From Acidobacteriota bacterium (GTDB taxonomy: Bacteria; Acidobacteriota; UBA890; WLXD01): a stretch of DNA of 64,000 nucleotides. The DNA lies in assembly GCA_963666055.2 (NCBI GenBank), contig CAXWPH010000002.1, positions 96,001-160,000 on the forward strand. Direction: 5' to 3'. A program made the position numbers and the translations under genes. The notes beneath the pieces were generated by a model, which worked only from the letters and a program-made list of their open reading frames with translations, was not told where the DNA came from and ran no database searches. Shown one piece after another: positions 53,823 through 61,197 of the stretch. Each line of letters begins with the position of its first letter. Positions within the stretch are counted from its first letter, which is position 1.

Positions 53823-54030
53823 TCCTTGCTCCCGAAGTGCCGGCAGGTGCGCCGTAGATGAGTCCCAGAGACCTCATCGGCCTGCTCTCGAGCTCCTCTG
53901 AATCCGACTTCGACGAGACGGTCCGCCGGTACTGCCAGCCGGCTGTTGGGGTAGGCATCGTACAAGACCCTGTACCGGCGCAGGATGCGCACGTCCCTAC
54001 TAGGCTACTCGACTCAGGTAGACTCTCGTG

Positions 54031-54954
54031 ATGGCCGAAGATCGCAAGGAGCTCGTGGCGATCGTCGCGGCGAGGGAGGATGAGCTCGCGCCGCTGCGCG
54101 AGCGTGTGCTCGTTTCCGAGAAGATCAAAGATGGGCCCCGCTACTACCTACGGGGCACGCTGCGCGGAGTGCAGGTCGTGCTCGCGGTTACCGGCGACGG
54201 CAAGCGCAACGCCGATCTCGGAATCCGACGGTTGATCCAGATGTGCGCGCCGACGCGCGTCCTGGCTGTCGGGTTGGGAGGCGCGCTCTCGACAGACCTT
54301 GCGGTTGGCGACCTGGTGGTCTCCAGCGAAGTGATGGAGGGAGAACACACACTCGCCTGTCCGGATCTGCAGTGGCTGGAGGAAGCGTCGATTCATCTGG
54401 ATTATGACCTCGGGCGGCTGGTTACCGTCGACGAGATCTTGGCGACACCATCGAGCAAGTCGGAGTGGTACGGGCGGACATGGCGCGACCAGCCCGCTGC
54501 TGCCGACATGGAGTCCGCCTGCTTCGCCAGAGTGGCCGTAGCCTACAACCTGCCATACCTGATCGCGCGGGCTATCAGCGACGCTGCCGACGAGGTGCTA
54601 CCAGAGTTCCTCGAGGACTGCCGCGCGCAGGACGGCAGCATCGACAAGCGTCAGGTGTTTTGGAAGACGCTCTGGCGACCACGCTCGTGGGGCAACATCG
54701 TACGCTTGCGCTCGCGCATGCGGCGGTGCGCTAGCACGCTGGCCGATTTCGCCGAAGGGATTGGTTGCTGCGTTAGCCTAGCTGCGTTCCCCTCACTGGG
54801 CGCGTTGCCAGCGTCCGCCATTGACATGCCCCGAGGTGTCAAGGACACTCGGAACCCTATGCCCTCAGTGCGGTGCGCTGGTCTTGAACGCGGCGCGCCT
54901 GCCTCTTGTGCGTCGCCGTTGCCGGCGCCGATGCCGCGTTGCGAGTACGCATGA
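54031..54954 (+). CDS. Nucleoside phosphorylase (PNP/MTA-SAH nucleosidase fold), HpnG-like; C-terminus probably frameshift-extended (likely native stop 54779-54781)
   Basis: VTGDGKRNA, VGLGGAL..DLAVGDLV, ADMESA, RAISD; C-terminal helix similar to hopanoid-associated phosphorylases; adjacent to the isoprenoid operon. Confidence 0.75.
   Translation: MAEDRKELVAIVAAREDELAPLRERVLVSEKIKDGPRYYLRGTLRGVQVVLAVTGDGKRNADLGIRRLIQMCAPTRVLAVGLGGALSTDLAVGDLVVSSEVMEGEHTLACPDLQWLEEASIHLDYDLGRLVTVDEILATPSSKSEWYGRTWRDQPAAADMESACFARVAVAYNLPYLIARAISDAADEVLPEFLEDCRAQDGSIDKRQVFWKTLWRPRSWGNIVRLRSRMRRCASTLADFAEGIGCCVSLAAFPSLGALPASAIDMPRGVKDTRNPMPSVRCAGLERGAPASCASPLPAPMPRCEYA
54821..54849 (+). promoter_or_regulatory. 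Candidate promoter/operator of the mevalonate operon
   Basis: TTGACA-N10-TGTCAA inverted repeat (54821-54842); TTGACA is followed 17 nt later by GACACT. Confidence 0.5.
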
Positions 54955-55997
54955 GCAGTACCGACTCACCGGCCGCCAAGCCACCGGCCGAGCGCGACCG
55001 CAAAGCCGAGCACATCCAGCTGGCGCTCGAAGAGCGTATGCAGCACGGCAGTCGCGGCTTCGACGCTTGGCGGCTCGAGCATTGCGCCCTTCCCGAGCTC
55101 GACCTGGCCGAGGTCGACCTCAGCACCGAATTCCTCGGCAAGCAGCTGGCGGCGCCGCTCCTTATCTCCTGCATGACCGGTGGCACCGCTGACGCGGCCC
55201 GAATCAACCGCAACTTGGCCATCGGCGCCGAGCGGGCCGGTGTTGCGGTTGGCGTGGGGTCGCAGCGCAAGGCGCTGGAGGATCCTACGCTCCAAGCCAC
55301 CTTCCAGGTTCGTGAGTACGCTCCCACGGTCCCCCTGCTGGCCAATCTAGGGGCGGTGCAATTGAACTGCGGGTACGGCGTCGCCGAGTGCCGGGCGGCC
55401 GTTCATATGATCGATGCCGACGCTCTCGTGTTGCACCTGAACCCTCTGCAGGAGGCGATTCAGCCCGAGGGCGATGTCAACTTCGCCAACCTGTTGCCGA
55501 AGATCGGCGCGATTGTTGGTCAACTCGAGGTACCGGTCATCGTCAAGGAGATCGGCATGGGCATATCGCTGTCGGTGGCCGAGCGCCTCGCTGAAGCCGG
55601 CGTCCGTATCATCGACACTGCGGGGCATGGGGGCACCAACTGGGCGCGCATCGAAGCGCAGCGTGCCGACGACCTCGAGCTCGGTGCGACGTTCGCCGAG
55701 TGGGGAATTCCAACGCCCGACAGCATCCGCGCCGTCGCCAGCGTGCCGGGAGTCACCGTCATTGGCAGCGGCGGGGTCCGTACTGGAATCGACGTGGCCA
55801 AGGCGGTAGCGCTCGGCGCTGACATGGTCGGCCTGGCGTATCCGTTCCTCAAAGCGGCGCTGGAGTCAGCCGCTGCCGTCGTGGCGCGGATCGACCGTAC
55901 CTTGACGGAGCTCAGGGTGTCGATGTTCTGCGCCGGCATCCGTACAGTGGCCGATCTGCGTGCCGCAAGTCTGATCGAGCGAGCGACTCGGCGATGA
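54951..55997 (+). CDS. fni: Type 2 isopentenyl-diphosphate delta-isomerase (FMN-dependent)
   Basis: RKAEHI, ISCMTGG, VGSQR, ANLGAVQL, HLNPLQEAIQPEGD, VKEIG, GGTNW, SGGVRTG. Confidence 0.96.
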   Translation: MSSTDSPAAKPPAERDRKAEHIQLALEERMQHGSRGFDAWRLEHCALPELDLAEVDLSTEFLGKQLAAPLLISCMTGGTADAARINRNLAIGAERAGVAVGVGSQRKALEDPTLQATFQVREYAPTVPLLANLGAVQLNCGYGVAECRAAVHMIDADALVLHLNPLQEAIQPEGDVNFANLLPKIGAIVGQLEVPVIVKEIGMGISLSVAERLAEAGVRIIDTAGHGGTNWARIEAQRADDLELGATFAEWGIPTPDSIRAVASVPGVTVIGSGGVRTGIDVAKAVALGADMVGLAYPFLKAALESAAAVVARIDRTLTELRVSMFCAGIRTVADLRAASLIERATRR

Positions 55998-57247
55998 CTG
56001 ACGCTGCCGAGCCGGTCGACCAGGGCACCCTCGTAGACGAGATCGTAGCCGGCACCCGGCGCTTCCATCACCTGCCGTCCGAGCTCGGCGCCGCTGAGGC
56101 TGCGGCCATTCGACGACAGGCGCTCGAGCGCCTGGCCGGAGTAAATCTGACACATACCGGCAAGTACTCATTCGACGCCGCGCGCGCCGCCGACAGCCAT
56201 TGCGAGAATCTGATCGGTGTGACGCAGGTGCCGGTCGGTGTAGCAGGGCCACTACTCGTGCGGGGTGATTATATCGACGGTGAGGTCTACGTCCCTCTGG
56301 CTACGACGGAGGGAGCGCTCGTCGCCAGCATTAACCGGGGCTGTGCGGCCATCCGCGCGGCCGGCGGGGCCGCCGTGTACGTGGAGGACGTCGGCATGAC
56401 CCGGGCGCCGGTGTTTCGCTCCAGCGGGCTGGCGCAGACACGTGAGTTCCTCCGCTGGGTTACCGACAACGAGGATGAGATCCGCTCCGTGGCAGAGGGC
56501 ACGAGCCGCTTCCTGCAGCTGGTGGATATCCGCCCCTATGCTTTCGGTACCACGATCTTCCTGCGCTTCAGGTTTCGCTCGGGCGATGCCATGGGAATGA
56601 ACATGGCAACCATCGCCTGCGATCAGCTAGTGCGCGAGTTGATCGAGCCGGCGACCGGGGTACCCTGCGTTGCTCTTTCCGGAAACTACTGTACCGACAA
56701 GAAACCCGCGGCGATCAACTTCCAGGAAGGCCGCGGCAAGCGCATACACGCGCAGGTCAGACTCGACGCCGATGTGCTGGCGCGCCTGAAGACGAGCGCG
56801 GCCGAGCTGCTCGAGGTGCAGTATCGCAAGAACCTGCTGGGCTCGATTGCTGCCGGTTCGATAGGTTTCAATGCCCACGTCGCCAACGTTCTCGCGGCGG
56901 TGTTTCTCGCTACTGGACAGGATCCGGCGCATGTAGTGGAAGGGTCGATGGGAATCACCTCTATCGAGCCTGGCGACGAGGGTGGCGTGGTGGCATCGAT
57001 GTACCTGCCTGCTGTTCCGCTGGCGGCGATCGGCGGTGGTACTGCGCTCGACACACAACGCGAGGCGCTTGCTGTGCTCGGCGTTGCTGCAGAGCCGGAC
57101 CGGCCTGGTGTCGCGGTGCTGCGATTAGCCGAGATCCTCGGCGCCGCCGTCCTCGCAGGCGAGCTGTCGTTGCTGGCCGCTCTTACCTCTCAGGACCTCG
57201 CCGGCGCCCACAAGCGGCTGGGGCGGCGCGCCCGGCCCGGCAGCTAG
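55994..57247 (+). CDS. hmgA: Class I (NADPH) HMG-CoA reductase
   Basis: CENLIG, PLATTEGALVASINRG, GMTRAP, GDAMGMNM, SGNYCTDKKPAAIN, GQDPAH, LAGELSL. Confidence 0.96.
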   Translation: MTDAAEPVDQGTLVDEIVAGTRRFHHLPSELGAAEAAAIRRQALERLAGVNLTHTGKYSFDAARAADSHCENLIGVTQVPVGVAGPLLVRGDYIDGEVYVPLATTEGALVASINRGCAAIRAAGGAAVYVEDVGMTRAPVFRSSGLAQTREFLRWVTDNEDEIRSVAEGTSRFLQLVDIRPYAFGTTIFLRFRFRSGDAMGMNMATIACDQLVRELIEPATGVPCVALSGNYCTDKKPAAINFQEGRGKRIHAQVRLDADVLARLKTSAAELLEVQYRKNLLGSIAAGSIGFNAHVANVLAAVFLATGQDPAHVVEGSMGITSIEPGDEGGVVASMYLPAVPLAAIGGGTALDTQREALAVLGVAAEPDRPGVAVLRLAEILGAAVLAGELSLLAALTSQDLAGAHKRLGRRARPGS

Positions 57248-57258
57248 ACGGTCGCCTG

Positions 57259-58377
57259 ATGGAAGCGGCGCGGTTGCCCGAAGGGCGCTTGCTGACGCGC
57301 GTCTCGACGCCTGGAAAGCTCATCCTCATGGGCGAACATGCGGTCGTCTACGGTCGGCCGGCGCTGGTGGCGGCCACTAGCCTGCGCCTACGGGTCTACC
57401 TATACCGCGCACAGCGGGCCGGCGTGGAAGTGGAGTTGCCGGAGCTCCAGTTCCAAAACCACGTTTCTTGGCAAGAGATCTGGCGCTATGCGAGCCGAAT
57501 GCGGCAGCGGTGGGACCGCTACGACACGAGCCTGACGCCGGAGGTGTTCGCTCGCCTTCAGGACGACCGCCCCGACCGGTTGGTGCTGCTGGCACTGGGC
57601 GAGGCAATCACGGCGCTCGGTGAGGATCCCGGCGCGAAGGACCATCCGCTGAGCGCGCTGCGGCTTCGGGTGGACTCGGCGGTCCCAATGGAGGTCGGCT
57701 TTGGGAGCTCCGCCGCCACCGCCGTGGCAGTGGTAACAGCGGTTTGTGCGCTCTCTGGTAAGGCGGAGAGGTGGTCACTGATTGGGCCGATCGTGGGCGA
57801 GGTGGAGCGCCGGCAGCATGGCGCGCCGTCTGGGGTGGATGTCGCGGCCGTGTTTCACGGCGGTGTGTTGCGCGCTCGCCGCGGCGGCGAAGAGCTATTG
57901 ATCGAGCCGCTGGCGGCGCGCCCTGACACCCTGCAGCGGCTGCGGGTGTTCGACACGGGTCGCTCGGCCGAGCCGACCGGCGCGGTGGTCGCGGCAGTAC
58001 GGGCGCAACACGACCGCCACCCAGCCAGCTTCGAGGCGTCGCTGGACGCTGCCGAATCCGCAACCCGGGCCTTCCAGGACGCGGTTACCGCATCAGCTGA
58101 CCAGATCGACCTGGTGCCACCGATCCGCGATGCTCAGCGCTACCTGGAGTCTCTCGGTGTGGTGCCCGAGCCAGTATGCGACGCCGTCCGCGCTGTCGAA
58201 GCTCTGGGCGGCGCCGCCAAGATCTCCGGTTCGGGTTCGCTCGCGGGGCCAGGGGCCGGCTCTTTGTTGGTATTGTTGCCTGCTGGGATCGAGAATCTCC
58301 CAGAGCCGCTGGCGAGGCTTCCGGAGCACGAAGTGTCGCTGGGCGCGGAGGGTGTGCGCGTAGAGGTGGCGTCATGA
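57259..58377 (+). CDS. mvk: Mevalonate kinase (GHMP family)
   Basis: PGKLILMGEHAVVYG, P.EVGFGSSAA, HGAPSGVD, AKISGSG. Confidence 0.88.
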   Translation: MEAARLPEGRLLTRVSTPGKLILMGEHAVVYGRPALVAATSLRLRVYLYRAQRAGVEVELPELQFQNHVSWQEIWRYASRMRQRWDRYDTSLTPEVFARLQDDRPDRLVLLALGEAITALGEDPGAKDHPLSALRLRVDSAVPMEVGFGSSAATAVAVVTAVCALSGKAERWSLIGPIVGEVERRQHGAPSGVDVAAVFHGGVLRARRGGEELLIEPLAARPDTLQRLRVFDTGRSAEPTGAVVAAVRAQHDRHPASFEASLDAAESATRAFQDAVTASADQIDLVPPIRDAQRYLESLGVVPEPVCDAVRAVEALGGAAKISGSGSLAGPGAGSLLVLLPAGIENLPEPLARLPEHEVSLGAEGVRVEVAS

Positions 58378-59399
58378 GCCGCAGCGCCACCGTCGAAGCA
58401 CCCTCCAATATCGCGTTTGTGAAGTACTGGGGTGCCGCTGACCTGGAGAAGGCCATCCCGCTCAACGCTTCGATCTCGATGTCGTTGCGGGCGTGCGTCA
58501 CACGGACGAGCGTCGAGACGCTCGCGGCCGGCGCCGACGACCAGATCTGGATGCGCGTCGACGGCCAATGGCGTCGCGCCGAAGGAGCGTTCCGGCATCG
58601 CGCAGCGGCACATCTGGAAGGTCTGCGGCGTTGGGCCAAAGTCGACGTGGGCTTTCGGGTCGCTACCGAGAACAGCTTTCCTGCCGCCGCCGGTATCGCC
58701 TCGTCGGCTTCCGGCTTCGCCGCCCTCACCCTGGCGGTGCTGGCGGCGCTCGAGCGGGAGCCGGCAGGTGATGAGCTATCGAATTTGGCGCGGTTGTCTG
58801 GCTCAGGCTCCGCGTCGCGGTCGGTTTTCGGCGGCTACGTGCAGTGGCCGCACGGCGACGAGGCAGACCCGTGGCGCGCCGCACCGCTGGCGACGGCCTC
58901 GCATTGGGACCTGCGCGACGTAATCGCGATTGTGCAAACCGGTCCCAAGGCGGTGTCGTCTCTCGAGGGGCACGCCCGGGCCCCCACCAGCCCCCATTTC
59001 GCACGCCGGCAGGAGCTCATCCCGTCGCGTCTTCAACGGGTGCGCGACGCCATCGAGGCGCGCGACCTGGACCAACTCGGTCCGGTCGTCGAGGAAGACG
59101 CGATTGAGCTCCACCTGGTAGCGATGTCCTCGCAGCCTCCGATCTTCTACTGGCAGCCGGCGACGCTTCGCGTGCTGCACCACGTTCGCACCCTGCGGAG
59201 CGGTGGAACGTCGGCGTGGGCAACAATGGACGCCGGAGCTAACGTGCATGTGATTTGCTCCGCCGACGACGAGGCAGACGTCGCCGCCGGGTTGGAAGCG
59301 CTCGATGGTGTCCAGAGTGTGATCCGCGACGGCGTGGGCTCGGGACCACGGACCCTGCCGGTATCGCTGCTCGATGCTCTGGATCGAGCGCAGCCATGA
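58374..59399 (+). CDS. mvaD: MvaD-family decarboxylase, probably mevalonate-5-phosphate decarboxylase
   Basis: NIAFVKYWG, NASIS, NSFPAAAGIASSASGFAAL, GSGSASRS, SSLEGH, TMDAGANVH; followed by ipk. Confidence 0.9.
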   Translation: MSRSATVEAPSNIAFVKYWGAADLEKAIPLNASISMSLRACVTRTSVETLAAGADDQIWMRVDGQWRRAEGAFRHRAAAHLEGLRRWAKVDVGFRVATENSFPAAAGIASSASGFAALTLAVLAALEREPAGDELSNLARLSGSGSASRSVFGGYVQWPHGDEADPWRAAPLATASHWDLRDVIAIVQTGPKAVSSLEGHARAPTSPHFARRQELIPSRLQRVRDAIEARDLDQLGPVVEEDAIELHLVAMSSQPPIFYWQPATLRVLHHVRTLRSGGTSAWATMDAGANVHVICSADDEADVAAGLEALDGVQSVIRDGVGSGPRTLPVSLLDALDRAQP

Positions 59400-60196
59400 A
59401 CGACCTGGTGGTAGTCAAGCTCGGTGGCAGCTTGATCACGAACAAGCGCCGCCATCGAACGGTGAGGCGGGCTGAGCTTTCGCGACTCGCCGGCGAGATC
59501 GCGGCGCTCACCCGCCGCTTTGGATTCCCGATGCTGTTAGGGCACGGTAGTGGGTCCTTTGGGCACGTGGCGGCAGCGGAGTCAGGCGTTCACGACGGGA
59601 TGGCCGGGCGTCGTGCGCGGGTCGGTGTGTCGCAGACGCAGGCTGCAGCTGCAGAGCTGCACGCGATCGTGATGAGCGCTCTGCGCGATGCCGGTGTGGC
59701 TGCCTACTCGGTGGCGCCGTCGAGCGCTATTGTCGCCAGAGGCCCCGGTCTTCGGCCGAGCGTGCACCTGGAGCCGGTGCTCCGAGCGCTCGACAGTGGG
59801 CTGCTACCCGTTACGTATGGCGACATCGTCATGGACCGGCAACGTGGCTGCTCGATTTGCTCGACCGAAATGGCGCTGCTGGCGTTCGTTCGCTCGCTAC
59901 GCTCGTCAAATCGGCGTGTCTCCGACGCCATCTGGCTCGGAGACACCGACGGCATTCTGGATGCGGCTGGGGTGAGCGTTACTCGCGTCCGCTTGCGAGA
60001 CGCCAGGCGCGTCCGCCGCCTGGTGAGTGGCGCGGCCGCGACCGACGTGACCGGCGGCATGCGCCATCGGTTCGAGGCGGCGTTGGCGCTGGCCCGCATT
60101 GGCGTACGGTCCTATCTGCTCGATGGCCGTCGACCGGGCATCCTGCGACGTGCGCTGCGGGGCACCGCGGTGCCGGGGACAATCGTCGAGCGTTGA
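59396..60196 (+). CDS. ipk: Isopentenyl phosphate kinase (amino acid kinase family)
   Basis: VVKLGGSLITNK, GHGSGSFGH, PVTYGD, ICSTE, DVTGGM, typical of IPK. Confidence 0.9.
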   Translation: MNDLVVVKLGGSLITNKRRHRTVRRAELSRLAGEIAALTRRFGFPMLLGHGSGSFGHVAAAESGVHDGMAGRRARVGVSQTQAAAAELHAIVMSALRDAGVAAYSVAPSSAIVARGPGLRPSVHLEPVLRALDSGLLPVTYGDIVMDRQRGCSICSTEMALLAFVRSLRSSNRRVSDAIWLGDTDGILDAAGVSVTRVRLRDARRVRRLVSGAAATDVTGGMRHRFEAALALARIGVRSYLLDGRRPGILRRALRGTAVPGTIVER

Positions 60197-60276
60197 CCGG
60201 CGGCGGCTTCGTTGCCTGGGCCGCGCCCCCGCCAGGGTGGATAATGGACCTCGGCCAGCCAAAGCCAGGCGCACGC

Positions 60277-61197
60277 ATGGACCGCATCGAAGACCTTCTC
60301 GAGAAGACCAGCCGCACGTTCGCGCTATCGATCCCGTTGCTGCCGGAGCCGACCCGCCGCGAGCTTGGCATCGCCTACCTGCTGTTCCGCATTGCGGACA
60401 CCTTCGAGGACGCGTCGCAATGGGACCGACAGCAGCGCATCGATGCCCTCGAAGAGTTCATGAGCCTGGTTCGAGATCCGGACGAGCAGCGCGCCGCCGA
60501 GCTGGGACGTAGGTGGGCCGCCTCCGTACCGATTGACCATCCCGGCTATCTCGAGCTACTCGGCGAATCCGCAACCGTGATCCGGGAATACCAGCGTCTG
60601 CGACCTGACGCACGGGAGATCATCCGTGAGCACACGTTGCGGACCGTTGCTGGCATGTCCGGATTCGTCAAGCGCTCTGTCGATGGCGTGCTCAAGCTCG
60701 AGTCTCTCGCTGACTTGCGCGAGTACTGTTACGTGGTTGCCGGTATCGTCGGTGAGCTCAGCACTGATCTGTTCCTCCTCGAGCGCCCCCAGCTGGCGTC
60801 GTCGATCGAGTTCTTGCGACAGCGCGCTGCGCGGTTTGGCGAGGCGCTGCAACTGGTCAACATCCTCAAGGATGCCGCCACCGACCGGCGTGAGGGTCGG
60901 CGTTACCTGCCTGCAGCGTTGAAGCGCAAGGAGATCTTCCGGTTGGCCCGCGAAGACCTCCGAGTAGCAGCCCATTACACCAACGCACTGCAGGCGGCGG
61001 GTGCGCCGCGCGGCATCGTCGCGTTCTGCGCGCTACCTACACGGCTGGCCGTCGTCGCCCTCGACATCGTCGAGCGGTGCGGGCCCGGCGCGAAGATCTC
61101 ACGCCAAGACGTTGCCGACATCGTCGAGGCCCTGAACCTAGATCTCGACGTCGGTGCTCCCGCGGTGGCGATTCCAGCAACCGCGAAACCGACGTGA
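60277..61197 (+). CDS. Squalene/phytoene synthase family, single-subunit squalene synthase-like (alternative ATG 60244)
   Basis: KTSRTFAL, YLLFRIADTFED, YCYVVAGIVGE, LQLVNILKD, EGRRYLP. Confidence 0.88.
   Translation: MDRIEDLLEKTSRTFALSIPLLPEPTRRELGIAYLLFRIADTFEDASQWDRQQRIDALEEFMSLVRDPDEQRAAELGRRWAASVPIDHPGYLELLGESATVIREYQRLRPDAREIIREHTLRTVAGMSGFVKRSVDGVLKLESLADLREYCYVVAGIVGELSTDLFLLERPQLASSIEFLRQRAARFGEALQLVNILKDAATDRREGRRYLPAALKRKEIFRLAREDLRVAAHYTNALQAAGAPRGIVAFCALPTRLAVVALDIVERCGPGAKISRQDVADIVEALNLDLDVGAPAVAIPATAKPT

What the first reader, a model, noticed from the sequence alone, without database searches (positions are those of the whole stretch)
54951..60196. Archaeal/Chloroflexi-type mevalonate route (MVK -> phosphomevalonate decarboxylase -> IPK) without phosphomevalonate kinase
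Seen: the operon has mvk, an MvaD homolog and a clear isopentenyl phosphate kinase, but no second GHMP kinase (PMK). The decarboxylase reads KYWGA and SSLEGH. As I recall, classical diphosphomevalonate decarboxylases have KYWGK and S(R/T)xGM at these positions, and the K/R residues bind the beta-phosphate. Established: haloarchaea and Roseiflexus/Anaerolinea decarboxylate mevalonate-5-phosphate and then use IPK, while type 2 IDI and class I HMGR are typical of archaea. Inference: this extends that pathway, as a compact operon, to another bacterial lineage, possibly by horizontal transfer.
Basis: partly seen in the sequence, partly recalled or inferred. Interest (0 to 1): 0.78.

Follow-up and report, generated by a model that had tools for sequence, protein, structure and literature searches.

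The report
Decarboxylate-first mevalonate operon in an acidobacterium
An uncultured acidobacterium in which no gene of the usual bacterial (MEP) route was found carries a compact mevalonate operon whose decarboxylase is predicted to act on mevalonate 5-phosphate, with an isopentenyl phosphate kinase likely adding the last phosphate; the pathway is known, but the papers I could search do not report it for this lineage.

Summary
Window 54028-61197 (+) holds a tight operon: a nucleosidase-like gene, type 2 IDI, class I HMGR, mevalonate kinase, an MvaD-family decarboxylase (KYWGA, SSLEGH), isopentenyl phosphate kinase and a squalene-synthase-like gene. Four junctions are ATGA overlaps.

The genome (95.7% complete) has no phosphomevalonate kinase by three family models and four PMK proteins. 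It has no IspH, Dxr or IspE, and one MvaD copy only.

The decarboxylase scores best against PDB 6n0x, recalled as the Anaerolinea phosphomevalonate decarboxylase (216 bits, against 156 for the best classical enzyme). It lacks the lysine of classical enzymes and carries the histidine of phosphomevalonate decarboxylases. Its catalytic Ser, Lys and Asp are kept.

IPK follows the decarboxylase in 76 of 80 related loci from Acidobacteriota, Rhodothermia, Gemmatimonadota and others. Six acidobacterial genomes whose decarboxylase is followed by a PMK-like gene all read Lys and Met at these positions.

It is a new host lineage for a known pathway, not a new pathway. This scan had already reached the same reading on other Acidobacteriota DNA (e1-754651, e1-1525202).

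The parts
54028..54954 (+). PNP_UDP_1 family nucleosidase or phosphorylase-like gene, probably the first gene of the operon
   Evidence: PF01048 87 bits. It is below cut-off for HpnG (94.5 against 187), MTA/SAH nucleosidase (93 against 169) and futalosine hydrolase (59 against 125). Its stop overlaps the IDI-2 start as ATGA. It is conserved upstream in the two closest loci, L013 and L014.
54951..55997 (+). Type 2 isopentenyl-diphosphate isomerase (IDI-2)
   Evidence: TIGR02151 396.3 bits, cut-off 281.3. ATGA overlap with HMGR.
55994..57247 (+). Class I (NADPH) HMG-CoA reductase
   Evidence: PF00368 383 bits. TIGR00533 445.3, cut-off 441.8. Best PDB hit 6hr7 at 358 bits, then plant and human class I enzymes.
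57259..58377 (+). Mevalonate kinase, the only GHMP kinase of the operon
   Evidence: TIGR00549 136.4 bits, below its cut-off of 163. PMK models score 32 and 25 bits. 11 of 11 PDB hits are mevalonate kinases.
58374..59399 (+). MvaD-family decarboxylase, predicted phosphomevalonate decarboxylase (P0001, 341 aa)
   Evidence: PF22700 plus PF18376. Best PDB hit 6n0x at 215.8 bits, against 156.3 for the best classical MDD. Ala21, Leu197 and His200 stand where classical enzymes have Lys, Arg and Met. Catalytic Ser111, Lys192, Ser196 and Asp286 are kept. ATGA overlaps with MVK and IPK.
59396..60196 (+). Isopentenyl phosphate kinase (P0002, 266 aa)
   Evidence: NF040647 148.2 bits, cut-off 120. The top 7 PDB hits are all IPKs; FomA scores 48.6. 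It is the only copy in the genome.
60244..61197 (+). Squalene/phytoene synthase family gene (squalene-synthase-like), last gene before a convergent gene
   Evidence: PF00494 122 bits. TIGR01559 91 bits, below its cut-off of 287. Best PDB hits are squalene synthases at 51 bits. Found in 56 of the 80 related loci, in most of them downstream of IPK.

Best explanation
The operon encodes a mevalonate pathway that is predicted to run by the haloarchaeal/Chloroflexota order of steps. The steps are these:

- HMG-CoA reductase makes mevalonate; the HMG-CoA synthase is encoded elsewhere.
- The single GHMP kinase would phosphorylate mevalonate to mevalonate 5-phosphate.
- The MvaD homologue would use ATP to decarboxylate mevalonate 5-phosphate to isopentenyl phosphate.
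- IPK would phosphorylate that to IPP.
- IDI-2 interconverts IPP and DMAPP.

Shown directly: the gene set, its order and overlaps, the missing PMK and MEP genes, the sequence state of the decarboxylase, and the conservation of the MvaD-IPK pair. Inferred: the substrate of the decarboxylase and the flux through IPK. Because no MEP gene was found, this route would be the organism's only source of IPP. One use is menaquinone, whose futalosine-pathway genes are present.
For: 1. No PMK was found in a 95.7% complete genome.
- PF04275: no hit.
- TIGR01220: best 19 bits. NF040957: best 16 bits. Both hits lie on the operon's own MVK.
- tblastn with four PMKs: best E 0.054-0.11; apart from one short 62-residue match on contig C15, the best matches lie on the MVK.
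- The five GHMP genes are ThrB, a sugar kinase, GalK, MVK and MvaD.

2. No MEP route was found: no IspH, no Dxr, and no IspE among the GHMP genes. HMGS is present on contig C11.

3. There is one MvaD copy and one IPK copy. They are joined by an ATGA overlap.

4. The best solved relative is 6n0x (215.8 bits, E 8e-63). That entry reads KYWGN and STQGH. A second entry, 6n0z, differs by K and M at exactly these two places. PMC9254496 (passages read) says Thomas et al. changed PMD specificity into DMD specificity by mutagenesis.

5. Dellas et al. 2013 (PMC3857490, Table 4) list Lys21 among the diphosphate-binding residues of MDD, replaced in the MPDs. The Roseiflexus enzyme does not turn over MVAPP at a measurable rate. 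[quoted passage not shown] The window has Ala and His at these positions.

6. In the 80 related loci the Lys position is never Lys (A 69, V 5, T 3, G 1, I 1, gap 1) and the Met position is His in 80 of 80. IPK follows in 76 of 80 (73 within 450 bp). Two more are cut at a contig end.

7. Contrast within the phylum. PMK-like matches occur in 7 of 401 sampled genomes, none of which is among the 33 IPK-bearing genomes. In 6 of those 7 an MvaD homologue lies directly upstream of the PMK-like gene, and all 6 read KYWGK and Met.

8. ML tree of 64 rows: a branch with SH-aLRT 98 joins the window clade (18 rows, 99) with Chloroflexota-type and Halococcus homologues, apart from all Lys/Met rows.

9. A natural IPK::MvaD fusion protein exists in the family (P0133).
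Against: - No assay was done; substrate choice is inferred from sequence and context only.
- NCBI's PMD model NF040704 scores 151 bits, far below its cut-off of 475. The DMD model TIGR01240 passes (224 against 171). Relatives in public records that carry a name are all named diphosphomevalonate decarboxylase.
- The Arg83-type residue that Dellas et al. list for MPDs is Ala27 here, with Lys26 beside it.
- Arg193 is kept in 24 of 80 clade members.
- His at the Met position is not specific. A large Lys+His group exists whose partner kinase I could not identify.
- 14 of the 33 IPK-bearing acidobacterial genomes also have IspH. In those lineages the operon is not the sole route.
- The genome is 95.7% complete, so a missing PMK cannot be excluded outright.
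Confidence: 0.85

Rival explanations
1. The decarboxylase accepts both mevalonate 5-phosphate and mevalonate 5-diphosphate. The cell would mainly use the monophosphate because it lacks PMK.
For: PMC11052028 (passages) speaks of a dual specificity of Chloroflexota enzymes. 24 of 80 clade members keep Arg at the Arg193 position. The enzyme passes the DMD model TIGR01240.
Against: Without a PMK no diphosphate substrate would be made. The Roseiflexus enzyme showed no measurable MVAPP turnover (PMC3857490). Lys21 is absent from all 80 related loci.
Confidence: 0.07
2. It is a classical diphosphomevalonate decarboxylase served by an unrecognised, non-homologous phosphomevalonate kinase. IPK would only salvage isopentenyl phosphate.
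For: The enzyme passes TIGR01240 and is named DMD in public records. The genome is not complete at 95.7%. IPK coexists with a classical pathway in some eukaryotes (PMC3857490 abstract and passages).
Against: No GHMP-type or animal-type PMK was found. The Lys and Met of classical enzymes are replaced. IPK is translationally coupled to the decarboxylase and conserved next to it in 76 of 80 loci. Acidobacterial genomes that do have a PMK-like gene carry a different, Lys/Met-type decarboxylase and no IPK.
Confidence: 0.05
3. The archaeal modified route operates: phosphomevalonate dehydratase (AcnX), then anhydromevalonate phosphate decarboxylase (UbiD type), then IPK. The MvaD homologue would do something else.
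For: The genome has two two-subunit AcnX pairs with no hydroxyproline genes beside them. The second pair scores nearly the same against the DUF521 protein 7cnr, recalled as archaeal (190 bits), as against cis-3-hydroxy-L-proline dehydratase (223 bits).
Against: Both AcnX large subunits score best with cis-3-hydroxy-L-proline dehydratase. The only UbiD homologue is the menaquinone decarboxylase (TIGR03701 516 bits, cut-off 496) in an MqnP-UbiX-UbiD-MqnE cluster. The MvaD gene keeps all catalytic residues and lies between MVK and IPK.
Confidence: 0.02
4. The Thermoplasma-type route operates: the MvaD homologue acts as mevalonate 3-kinase or as mevalonate 3,5-bisphosphate decarboxylase.
For: The enzyme belongs to the same protein family. 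There is a weak match to NF040847 (34 bits).
Against: There is only one MvaD-family gene, whereas that route needs two. An ordinary MVK is present. The catalytic Asp, which PMC9254496 says is absent in M3K, is present as Asp286. NF040847 scores 34 bits against a cut-off of 560.
Confidence: 0.01

Closest known systems
Chloroflexota alternative mevalonate pathway: Roseiflexus castenholzii MPD plus IPK (Dellas et al. 2013, PMC3857490), and the Anaerolinea thermophila PMD structure (PDB 6n0x; that this entry is the Anaerolinea enzyme is recalled, not printed by the tool)
   Same: MVK, an MvaD-family decarboxylase without the classical Lys and with His at the Met position, IPK, IDI-2 and no PMK. 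It is the best solved relative (216 bits) and falls in the same starred superclade.
   Different: About 45% identity at most. The window clade is a separate, well-supported clade (99). The position that is Arg in the Chloroflexota enzymes (Arg83 of Roseiflexus) is Ala27 here. Hoshino and Gaucher (PMC6107057) place HMGR-II in Chloroflexi and say their genes are not clustered. Here HMGR is class I and the genes form one overlapping operon.
Haloarchaeal PMD plus IPK pathway (Haloferax volcanii, VanNice et al. 2014; seen only as a reference)
   Same: The same order of steps, IDI-2 and class I HMGR are typical there. The Halococcus homologue I fetched also has non-Lys (Leu) and His.
   Different: NCBI's model NF040704, which names MvaD-type PMD, scores only 151 bits against a cut-off of 475. 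The host is a bacterium. The haloarchaeal homologue is a distant, long branch.
Classical bacterial mevalonate operon mvk-mvaD-PMK (S. aureus, E. faecalis, L. monocytogenes, Streptomyces; loci L099-L102)
   Same: The same enzyme families for MVK, the decarboxylase and IDI-2. The decarboxylase lies directly after mvk. Catalytic Ser, Lys and Asp are conserved.
   Different: Here IPK stands where PMK stands there. Lys20, Arg192 and Met195 (E. faecalis numbering) are Ala, Leu and His. Identity is 30-37%.
Acidobacterial subdivision 22 MAG 'Mor1' (Sinninghe Damste et al. 2017, PMC5462960, passages read)
   Same: [quoted passage not shown]
   Different: In the passages I read, that paper does not name a phosphomevalonate decarboxylase or IPK, or explain the missing step. 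I did not compare its sequence with the window.

Membership tests
Phosphomevalonate decarboxylase (PMD/MPD) within the MvaD/GHMP family | MvaD-type N- and C-terminal domains | tested here: met
   PF22700 145 bits and PF18376 58 bits.
Phosphomevalonate decarboxylase (PMD/MPD) within the MvaD/GHMP family | Catalytic residues for ATP-dependent decarboxylation: E. faecalis Ser106, Lys187, Ser191 and Asp282 (the roles of Ser106, Lys187 and Ser191 are from PMC7414129; the Asp from PMC9254496) | tested here: met
   Ser111, Lys192, Ser196 and Asp286 are present, and conserved in 80 of 80 related loci.
Phosphomevalonate decarboxylase (PMD/MPD) within the MvaD/GHMP family | Loss of the diphosphate-binding Lys (S. 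epidermidis Lys21), with His where DMD has Met (PMC3857490 Table 4; PMC11052028) | tested here: met
   Ala21 and His200. 6n0x has Asn and His.
Phosphomevalonate decarboxylase (PMD/MPD) within the MvaD/GHMP family | Groups with known PMDs rather than with DMDs in a tree | tested here: met
   SH-aLRT 98 for a branch that joins it with Chloroflexota-type and Halococcus rows, apart from all Lys/Met rows. FastTree on 215 rows agrees, support 93. The Chloroflexota label rests on two cluster names.
Phosphomevalonate decarboxylase (PMD/MPD) within the MvaD/GHMP family | Passes NCBIfam's PMD equivalog NF040704 | tested here: not met
   151 bits against a cut-off of 475. I cannot see what the model was built from; I suspect it is haloarchaeal.
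Phosphomevalonate decarboxylase (PMD/MPD) within the MvaD/GHMP family | Turns over mevalonate 5-phosphate and not mevalonate 5-diphosphate | not testable with these tools
   This needs an enzyme assay.
Haloarchaea/Chloroflexota-type mevalonate pathway | MVK and IPK present, PMK absent from the genome | tested here: met
   MVK, IPK, and no PMK in a genome that is 95.7% complete.
Classical diphosphomevalonate decarboxylase (DMD/MDD) | KYWGK lysine and S-R/T-x-G-M methionine, with a PMK partner | tested here: not met
   The window has Ala and His and no PMK. The four named anchors and the six acidobacterial PMK-linked homologues all have Lys and Met.
Classical diphosphomevalonate decarboxylase (DMD/MDD) | Passes NCBIfam equivalog TIGR01240 | tested here: met
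   224 bits against a cut-off of 171. I did not score the known Chloroflexota PMDs against this model, so I do not know whether it separates the two activities.
Isopentenyl phosphate kinase (amino acid kinase fold) | Passes the IPK equivalog. Conserved Lys, Gly-Gly, Lys and His of IPKs (PMC3857490 Table 2) | tested here: met
   NF040647 148 bits, cut-off 120. The sequence reads VKLGGS..K and GHGSGSFGH, aligned to solved IPKs. I read the residue match by eye from that alignment.

The most novel reading that the evidence does not exclude
The decarboxylate-first (PMD-IPK) mevalonate route is not an archaeal and Chloroflexota oddity. It is a widespread bacterial operon, IDI2-HMGR(I)-MVK-PMD-IPK, shared by Acidobacteriota, Rhodothermia, Gemmatimonadota and other phyla. 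It has replaced the MEP pathway in whole acidobacterial families and coexists with MEP in others. The Lys-bearing His-type enzymes that branch beside it would be stages in the change between PMD and DMD, taking place inside Bacteria.
Probability: 0.3. Interest if true: 0.6.

Novelty: new member of a known kind. Interest (0 to 1): 0.4.

Why it matters
[quoted passage not shown] A 2024 survey I read still names only haloarchaea, other archaea and Chloroflexota (PMC11052028).

If the prediction holds, the route is also the only source of isoprenoid precursors found by these searches in at least two acidobacterial families. It would occur as one conserved operon in at least four further phyla.

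That bears on three things:
- how the PMD and DMD forms of the pathway evolved;
- the automatic naming of these genes, which public records that give them a name call diphosphomevalonate decarboxylase;
- reading isoprenoid, menaquinone and squalene metabolism from soil and sediment metagenomes.

It is not a new mechanism.

Tried and rejected
- **Papers not held.** Thomas et al. 2019 (pmid 31268677) and three MDD structure papers are not held. The roles of the two switch positions therefore rest on the PDB sequences seen, on one sentence in PMC9254496, and on PMC3857490 and PMC11052028.
- **First metagenome scan.** The scan with P0170 found no relative. The second scan, with an alignment, returned a broad sample rather than the Lys+His clade I was after.
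- **Partner of the Lys+His enzymes.** I hoped to show that these enzymes pair with PMK. The kinase beside them is a weak MVK-like protein (60-82 bits in 7 of 8 tested, 166 in one). Their partner stays unknown, and I dropped that argument.
- **IPK adjacency in the metagenome sample.** It was seen in 5 of 10 non-Lys loci and 0 of 70 Lys loci. This is weak evidence: four of the five belong to the window's own clade, and gene order differs between lineages.
- **Cluster names.** The look-up named only 2 of 10 representatives.
- **Promoter and terminator scan.** It gave nothing above chance: 0 promoters, and 4 terminator-like sites against 3.5 expected.
- **Routes considered and rejected.** The archaeal AcnX/UbiD route and the Thermoplasma-type route.
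- **Not attempted.** Structure prediction, complex prediction and read mapping. None of them could decide the substrate.
- **Not opened.** Supplementary files of any paper. The species tables of PMC6107057 and PMC11052028 could list these lineages without my knowing.

Full report
**What is there.** On the + strand, seven genes run from 54028 to 61197. They lie between a divergent upstream gene and a convergent downstream gene.
- A PNP_UDP_1 nucleosidase-like gene, 54028-54954.
- Type 2 IDI, 54951-55997: TIGR02151 396 bits, cut-off 281.
- Class I NADPH HMG-CoA reductase, 55994-57247: TIGR00533 445.3, cut-off 441.8. The best PDB hit is 6hr7 at 358 bits.
- A GHMP kinase, 57259-58377.
- An MvaD-family decarboxylase, 58374-59399.
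- An isopentenyl phosphate kinase, 59396-60196: NF040647 148 bits, cut-off 120.
- A squalene-synthase-like gene, 60244-61197.

Four junctions are ATGA overlaps: PNP/IDI2, IDI2/HMGR, MVK/MvaD and MvaD/IPK.

**The kinase is a mevalonate kinase, not a PMK.** TIGR00549 gives 136 bits, below its cut-off of 163. The two PMK models give 32 and 25 bits. All 11 PDB hits are mevalonate kinases.

**The IPK is clear.** The seven best PDB hits are IPKs (best 115 bits). The fosfomycin kinase FomA comes next at 48.6 bits.

**The rest of the genome.** The window is contig C2:96001-160000 of a 5.73 Mb assembly in 15 contigs, 95.7% complete.
- The GHMP N-terminal domain finds five genes: homoserine kinase, a sugar kinase beside a GalU-like gene, galactokinase, the MVK and the MvaD.
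- No PMK appears with PF04275 (0 hits), TIGR01220 (best 19 bits, on the MVK itself) or NF040957 (16 bits, same place).
- tblastn with the PMKs of four named operons gives best E values of 0.054-0.11. Apart from one short 62-residue match on contig C15, the best matches lie on the MVK.
- IspH and Dxr are not found, and no IspE is among the GHMP genes.
- HMG-CoA synthase is on another contig.
- There is one MvaD copy and one IPK copy.

As far as a 95.7% complete genome can show, this operon is therefore the only route to IPP, and it lacks the kinase that a classical decarboxylase would need. The organism has a futalosine-type menaquinone cluster, MqnP-UbiX-UbiD-MqnE, so it does need polyprenyl precursors.

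**The decarboxylase.** Its best solved relative is 6n0x (215.8 bits, E 8e-63). The best classical enzyme, E. faecalis 5v2l, scores 156.3 bits. I recall 6n0x as the Anaerolinea thermophila phosphomevalonate decarboxylase of Thomas et al. 2019. The tool prints only 'diphosphomevalonate decarboxylase', and I could not read that paper. PMC9254496 (passages) confirms two things: a PMD structure from A. thermophila exists, and Thomas et al. changed PMD specificity into DMD specificity by mutagenesis.

In one search, 6n0x reads KYWGN and STQGH. A second entry, 6n0z, differs at exactly these two places (KYWGK, STQGM). E. faecalis and S. aureus MDD read KYWGK and S-R-x-G-M. The window reads Ala and His.

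Three papers bear on these positions.
- Dellas et al. 2013 (PMC3857490, Table 4) list Lys21 among the diphosphate-binding residues of MDDs and show it replaced in MPDs. They report that the Roseiflexus enzyme does not use MVAPP at a measurable rate.
- Chen et al. 2020 (PMC7414129, passages) report that Ser191 and Arg192 of the E. faecalis enzyme contact the pyrophosphate.

The catalytic residues are all kept: E. faecalis Ser106, Lys187, Ser191 and Asp282 correspond to window Ser111, Lys192, Ser196 and Asp286. The protein should therefore be an active ATP-dependent decarboxylase.

Two points count against. NCBI's PMD model NF040704 gives 151 bits against a cut-off of 475, while the DMD model TIGR01240 passes at 224 against 171. 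And the Arg83-type residue of the Roseiflexus enzyme is Ala27 here.

**Relatives.** A protein search finds homologues of 81-85% identity in Acidobacteriota MAGs and many of 55-67% in Thermoanaerobaculia and others. All that carry a name are called diphosphomevalonate decarboxylase.

A scan of one genome per species returned 80 loci. By the NCBI labels of the records they are:
- 34 Thermoanaerobaculia;
- 29 Acidobacteriota without class;
- 5 Holophagae;
- 6 Rhodothermia;
- 1 Bacteroidota;
- 2 Gemmatimonadota;
- 1 Schekmanibacteria;
- 2 unlabelled.

The order IDI2-HMGR-MVK-MvaD-IPK is conserved. IPK lies downstream on the same strand in 76 of 80 loci at E <= 1e-8, and in 73 of them within 450 bp. 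Two more loci (L035, L043) show the IPK start cut off by the contig end. L051 and L092 show none. All five genes are in 58 of 80 loci, and the SQS-like gene is in 56. PMK queries hit only the MVK gene in these loci.

At the Lys position the 80 homologues have A 69, V 5, T 3, G 1, I 1 and gap 1, so never Lys. At the Met position 80 of 80 have His. At the Arg position they vary: L 39, R 24, I 14, V 2, H 1. The Lys and His markers hold within this clade.

**A contrast inside the phylum.** In an even sample of 401 genomes of the window's phylum:
- IPK was found in 33 genomes, 16 of 227 genera.
- IspH was found in 366. This tally includes one genome, G024, that the tool marks as unpublished.
- PMK-like matches (TIGR01220, E <= 1e-8, all below its cut-off) were found in 7.
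- None of those 7 is among the 33 IPK-bearing genomes.

In 6 of the 7, an MvaD homologue lies directly upstream of the PMK-like gene. All six read KYWGK and have Met. They score higher with E. faecalis MDD (196-231 bits) than with the window's protein (143-169). Within one phylum, then, the state of these two positions goes with the downstream partner.

By my reading of the tables, 19 of the 33 IPK-bearing genomes have no IspH match. These include the window's family (9, counting the window) and family f8 (3 of 3). The other 14 have both. The sister family f2 has IPK in 0 of 15 genomes and IspH in 12 of 15.

**Trees.** I aligned the window protein, the 80 loci, 129 of the 150 best cluster representatives and five named anchors. 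The 21 representatives shorter than 300 or longer than 430 residues were left out.

FastTree puts the window with all 80 loci and 5 representatives in one clade (support 94). That clade sits inside a clade of 147 rows that all have His (support 93). All Lys/Met rows, including the four PMK-linked anchors, lie outside it. In that His clade there is a 23-row non-Lys group. It holds two representatives whose clusters NCBI names Anaerolineae and Chloroflexota.

A quicker maximum-likelihood tree of 64 rows that I picked by hand from these groups gives SH-aLRT 98 for the branch that joins the window clade (18 rows, 99), the Chloroflexota-type rows, a Lys+His group and the Halococcus homologue, apart from all Lys/Met rows. 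This was a short search under LG+G4, and many rows have odd composition, so the deeper order inside the His clade is not settled. In the FastTree tree the Rhodothermia rows form one clade (support 93) nested among acidobacterial rows. That fits a transfer between phyla but does not show its direction.

**What the motif does not show.** Many family members combine Lys with His: 37 representatives and 65 of the 80 metagenome loci. The kinase next to them is a weak MVK-like protein, so I cannot say what they use. In the metagenome sample IPK lay within 6 kb in 5 of 10 non-Lys loci and 0 of 70 Lys loci. Four of those five belong to the window's own clade, so this adds little. One representative, P0133, is a natural IPK::MvaD fusion with Arg and His at the two positions. 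Four others are GHMP-kinase::MvaD fusions with Lys and His.

**Rivals.**
- A classical enzyme with an unknown PMK is made unlikely by the points above.
- Dual specificity cannot be excluded without kinetics.
- The archaeal dehydratase route deserved a look, because the genome has two two-subunit AcnX pairs. Both are nearer to cis-3-hydroxy-L-proline dehydratase (332 and 223 bits) than to the DUF521 protein 7cnr, which I recall as the archaeal AcnX (194 and 190 bits). The only UbiD homologue is the menaquinone decarboxylase.
- The Thermoplasma route needs two MvaD-family proteins and no MVK. Here there is one, with its catalytic Asp.

[quoted passage not shown] Sinninghe Damste et al. [quoted passage not shown]

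My literature searches found no paper that describes this route in these lineages:
- 'Acidobacteria' + 'mevalonate pathway' + 'isopentenyl phosphate kinase' gave 1 review.
- 'Thermoanaerobaculia' + 'mevalonate' gave 0.
- 'Salinibacter' + 'isopentenyl phosphate kinase' gave 1 unrelated paper.
- 'Acidobacteriota' + 'mevalonate pathway' gave 13 papers, none on this by title or abstract.
- 'Rhodothermus' + 'mevalonate' + 'isopentenyl phosphate', with at least two of the three terms required, held 222 papers. None of the 12 listed reports this route in Rhodothermales. The one Rhodothermus paper, on R. marinus, describes MEP.

The library lacks most subscription journals, and I opened no supplements. 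Earlier agents of this scan reached the same reading on other Acidobacteriota and Gemmatimonadota genomes (e1-754651, e1-1525202, e1-7749222).

**Verdict.** It has not been assayed. It is a new host lineage, and a new operon form, of a known pathway.

Noticed in passing
window 54028-54954: A PNP_UDP_1 family gene overlaps the IDI-2 start by ATGA and is conserved upstream in the two closest relatives (L013, L014). It is below cut-off for HpnG, MTA/SAH nucleosidase and futalosine hydrolase. Since the genome makes menaquinone by the futalosine route, it might be that pathway's nucleosidase, coupled to precursor supply. That is speculation.
   Followed up: partly
window 60244-61197, and the own genome: A squalene-synthase-like gene ends the operon and is found in 56 of 80 related loci. 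No squalene-hopene cyclase was found in this genome (TIGR01507, best 18 bits), so the fate of its product is open.
   Followed up: partly
G000:C15:153819-155024 (L190) and G000:C1:55694-56896 (L191): There are two separate two-subunit AcnX (aconitase X) pairs, neither beside hydroxyproline genes. One sits next to a type III glutamine synthetase-like gene. The second large subunit scores almost equally against cis-3-hydroxy-L-proline dehydratase (223 bits) and the DUF521 protein 7cnr, recalled as archaeal (190 bits).
   Followed up: partly
P0133; also P0145, P0168, P0183, P0271 (cluster representatives): Natural fusion proteins occur in the MvaD family. One is an IPK-like amino-acid-kinase domain fused in front of an MvaD domain. 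Four have a GHMP kinase domain fused in front of it. P0127 (883 aa) holds several MvaD repeats and a DUF760 match.
   Followed up: partly
representatives; metagenome loci L112-L182: A large group of MvaD homologues combines the classical Lys with the His of phosphomevalonate decarboxylases. It branches beside the window's clade. Its neighbouring kinase is only weakly MVK-like, and its substrate cannot be read from sequence.
   Followed up: partly
phylum sample, families f68 (genus g132), f3 (g118), f55, f6: 14 of the 33 IPK-bearing acidobacterial genomes also have IspH, so both precursor routes seem to coexist there. The window's family f1 and family f8 have no IspH match.
   Followed up: no
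L051 (16,984 bases) and L092: These are two related loci in which no IPK follows the decarboxylase. In L051 the SQS-like gene follows directly, and no IPK lies within 8 kb on either side.
   Followed up: no
L020, L026, L054, L068, L069, L070, L086: The Rhodothermia/Salinibacteraceae copies of the operon lack the SQS-like gene. Their decarboxylases form one clade nested among acidobacterial ones in the FastTree tree, which suggests transfer between phyla.
   Followed up: partly
phylum genomes G018, G079, G192, G346 (family f19), G165, G256: A few Acidobacteriota carry a classical-type MvaD followed by a PMK-like gene. Of these six, five also have IspH by my reading of the table; G165 does not appear among the IspH-positive genomes.
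   Followed up: partly
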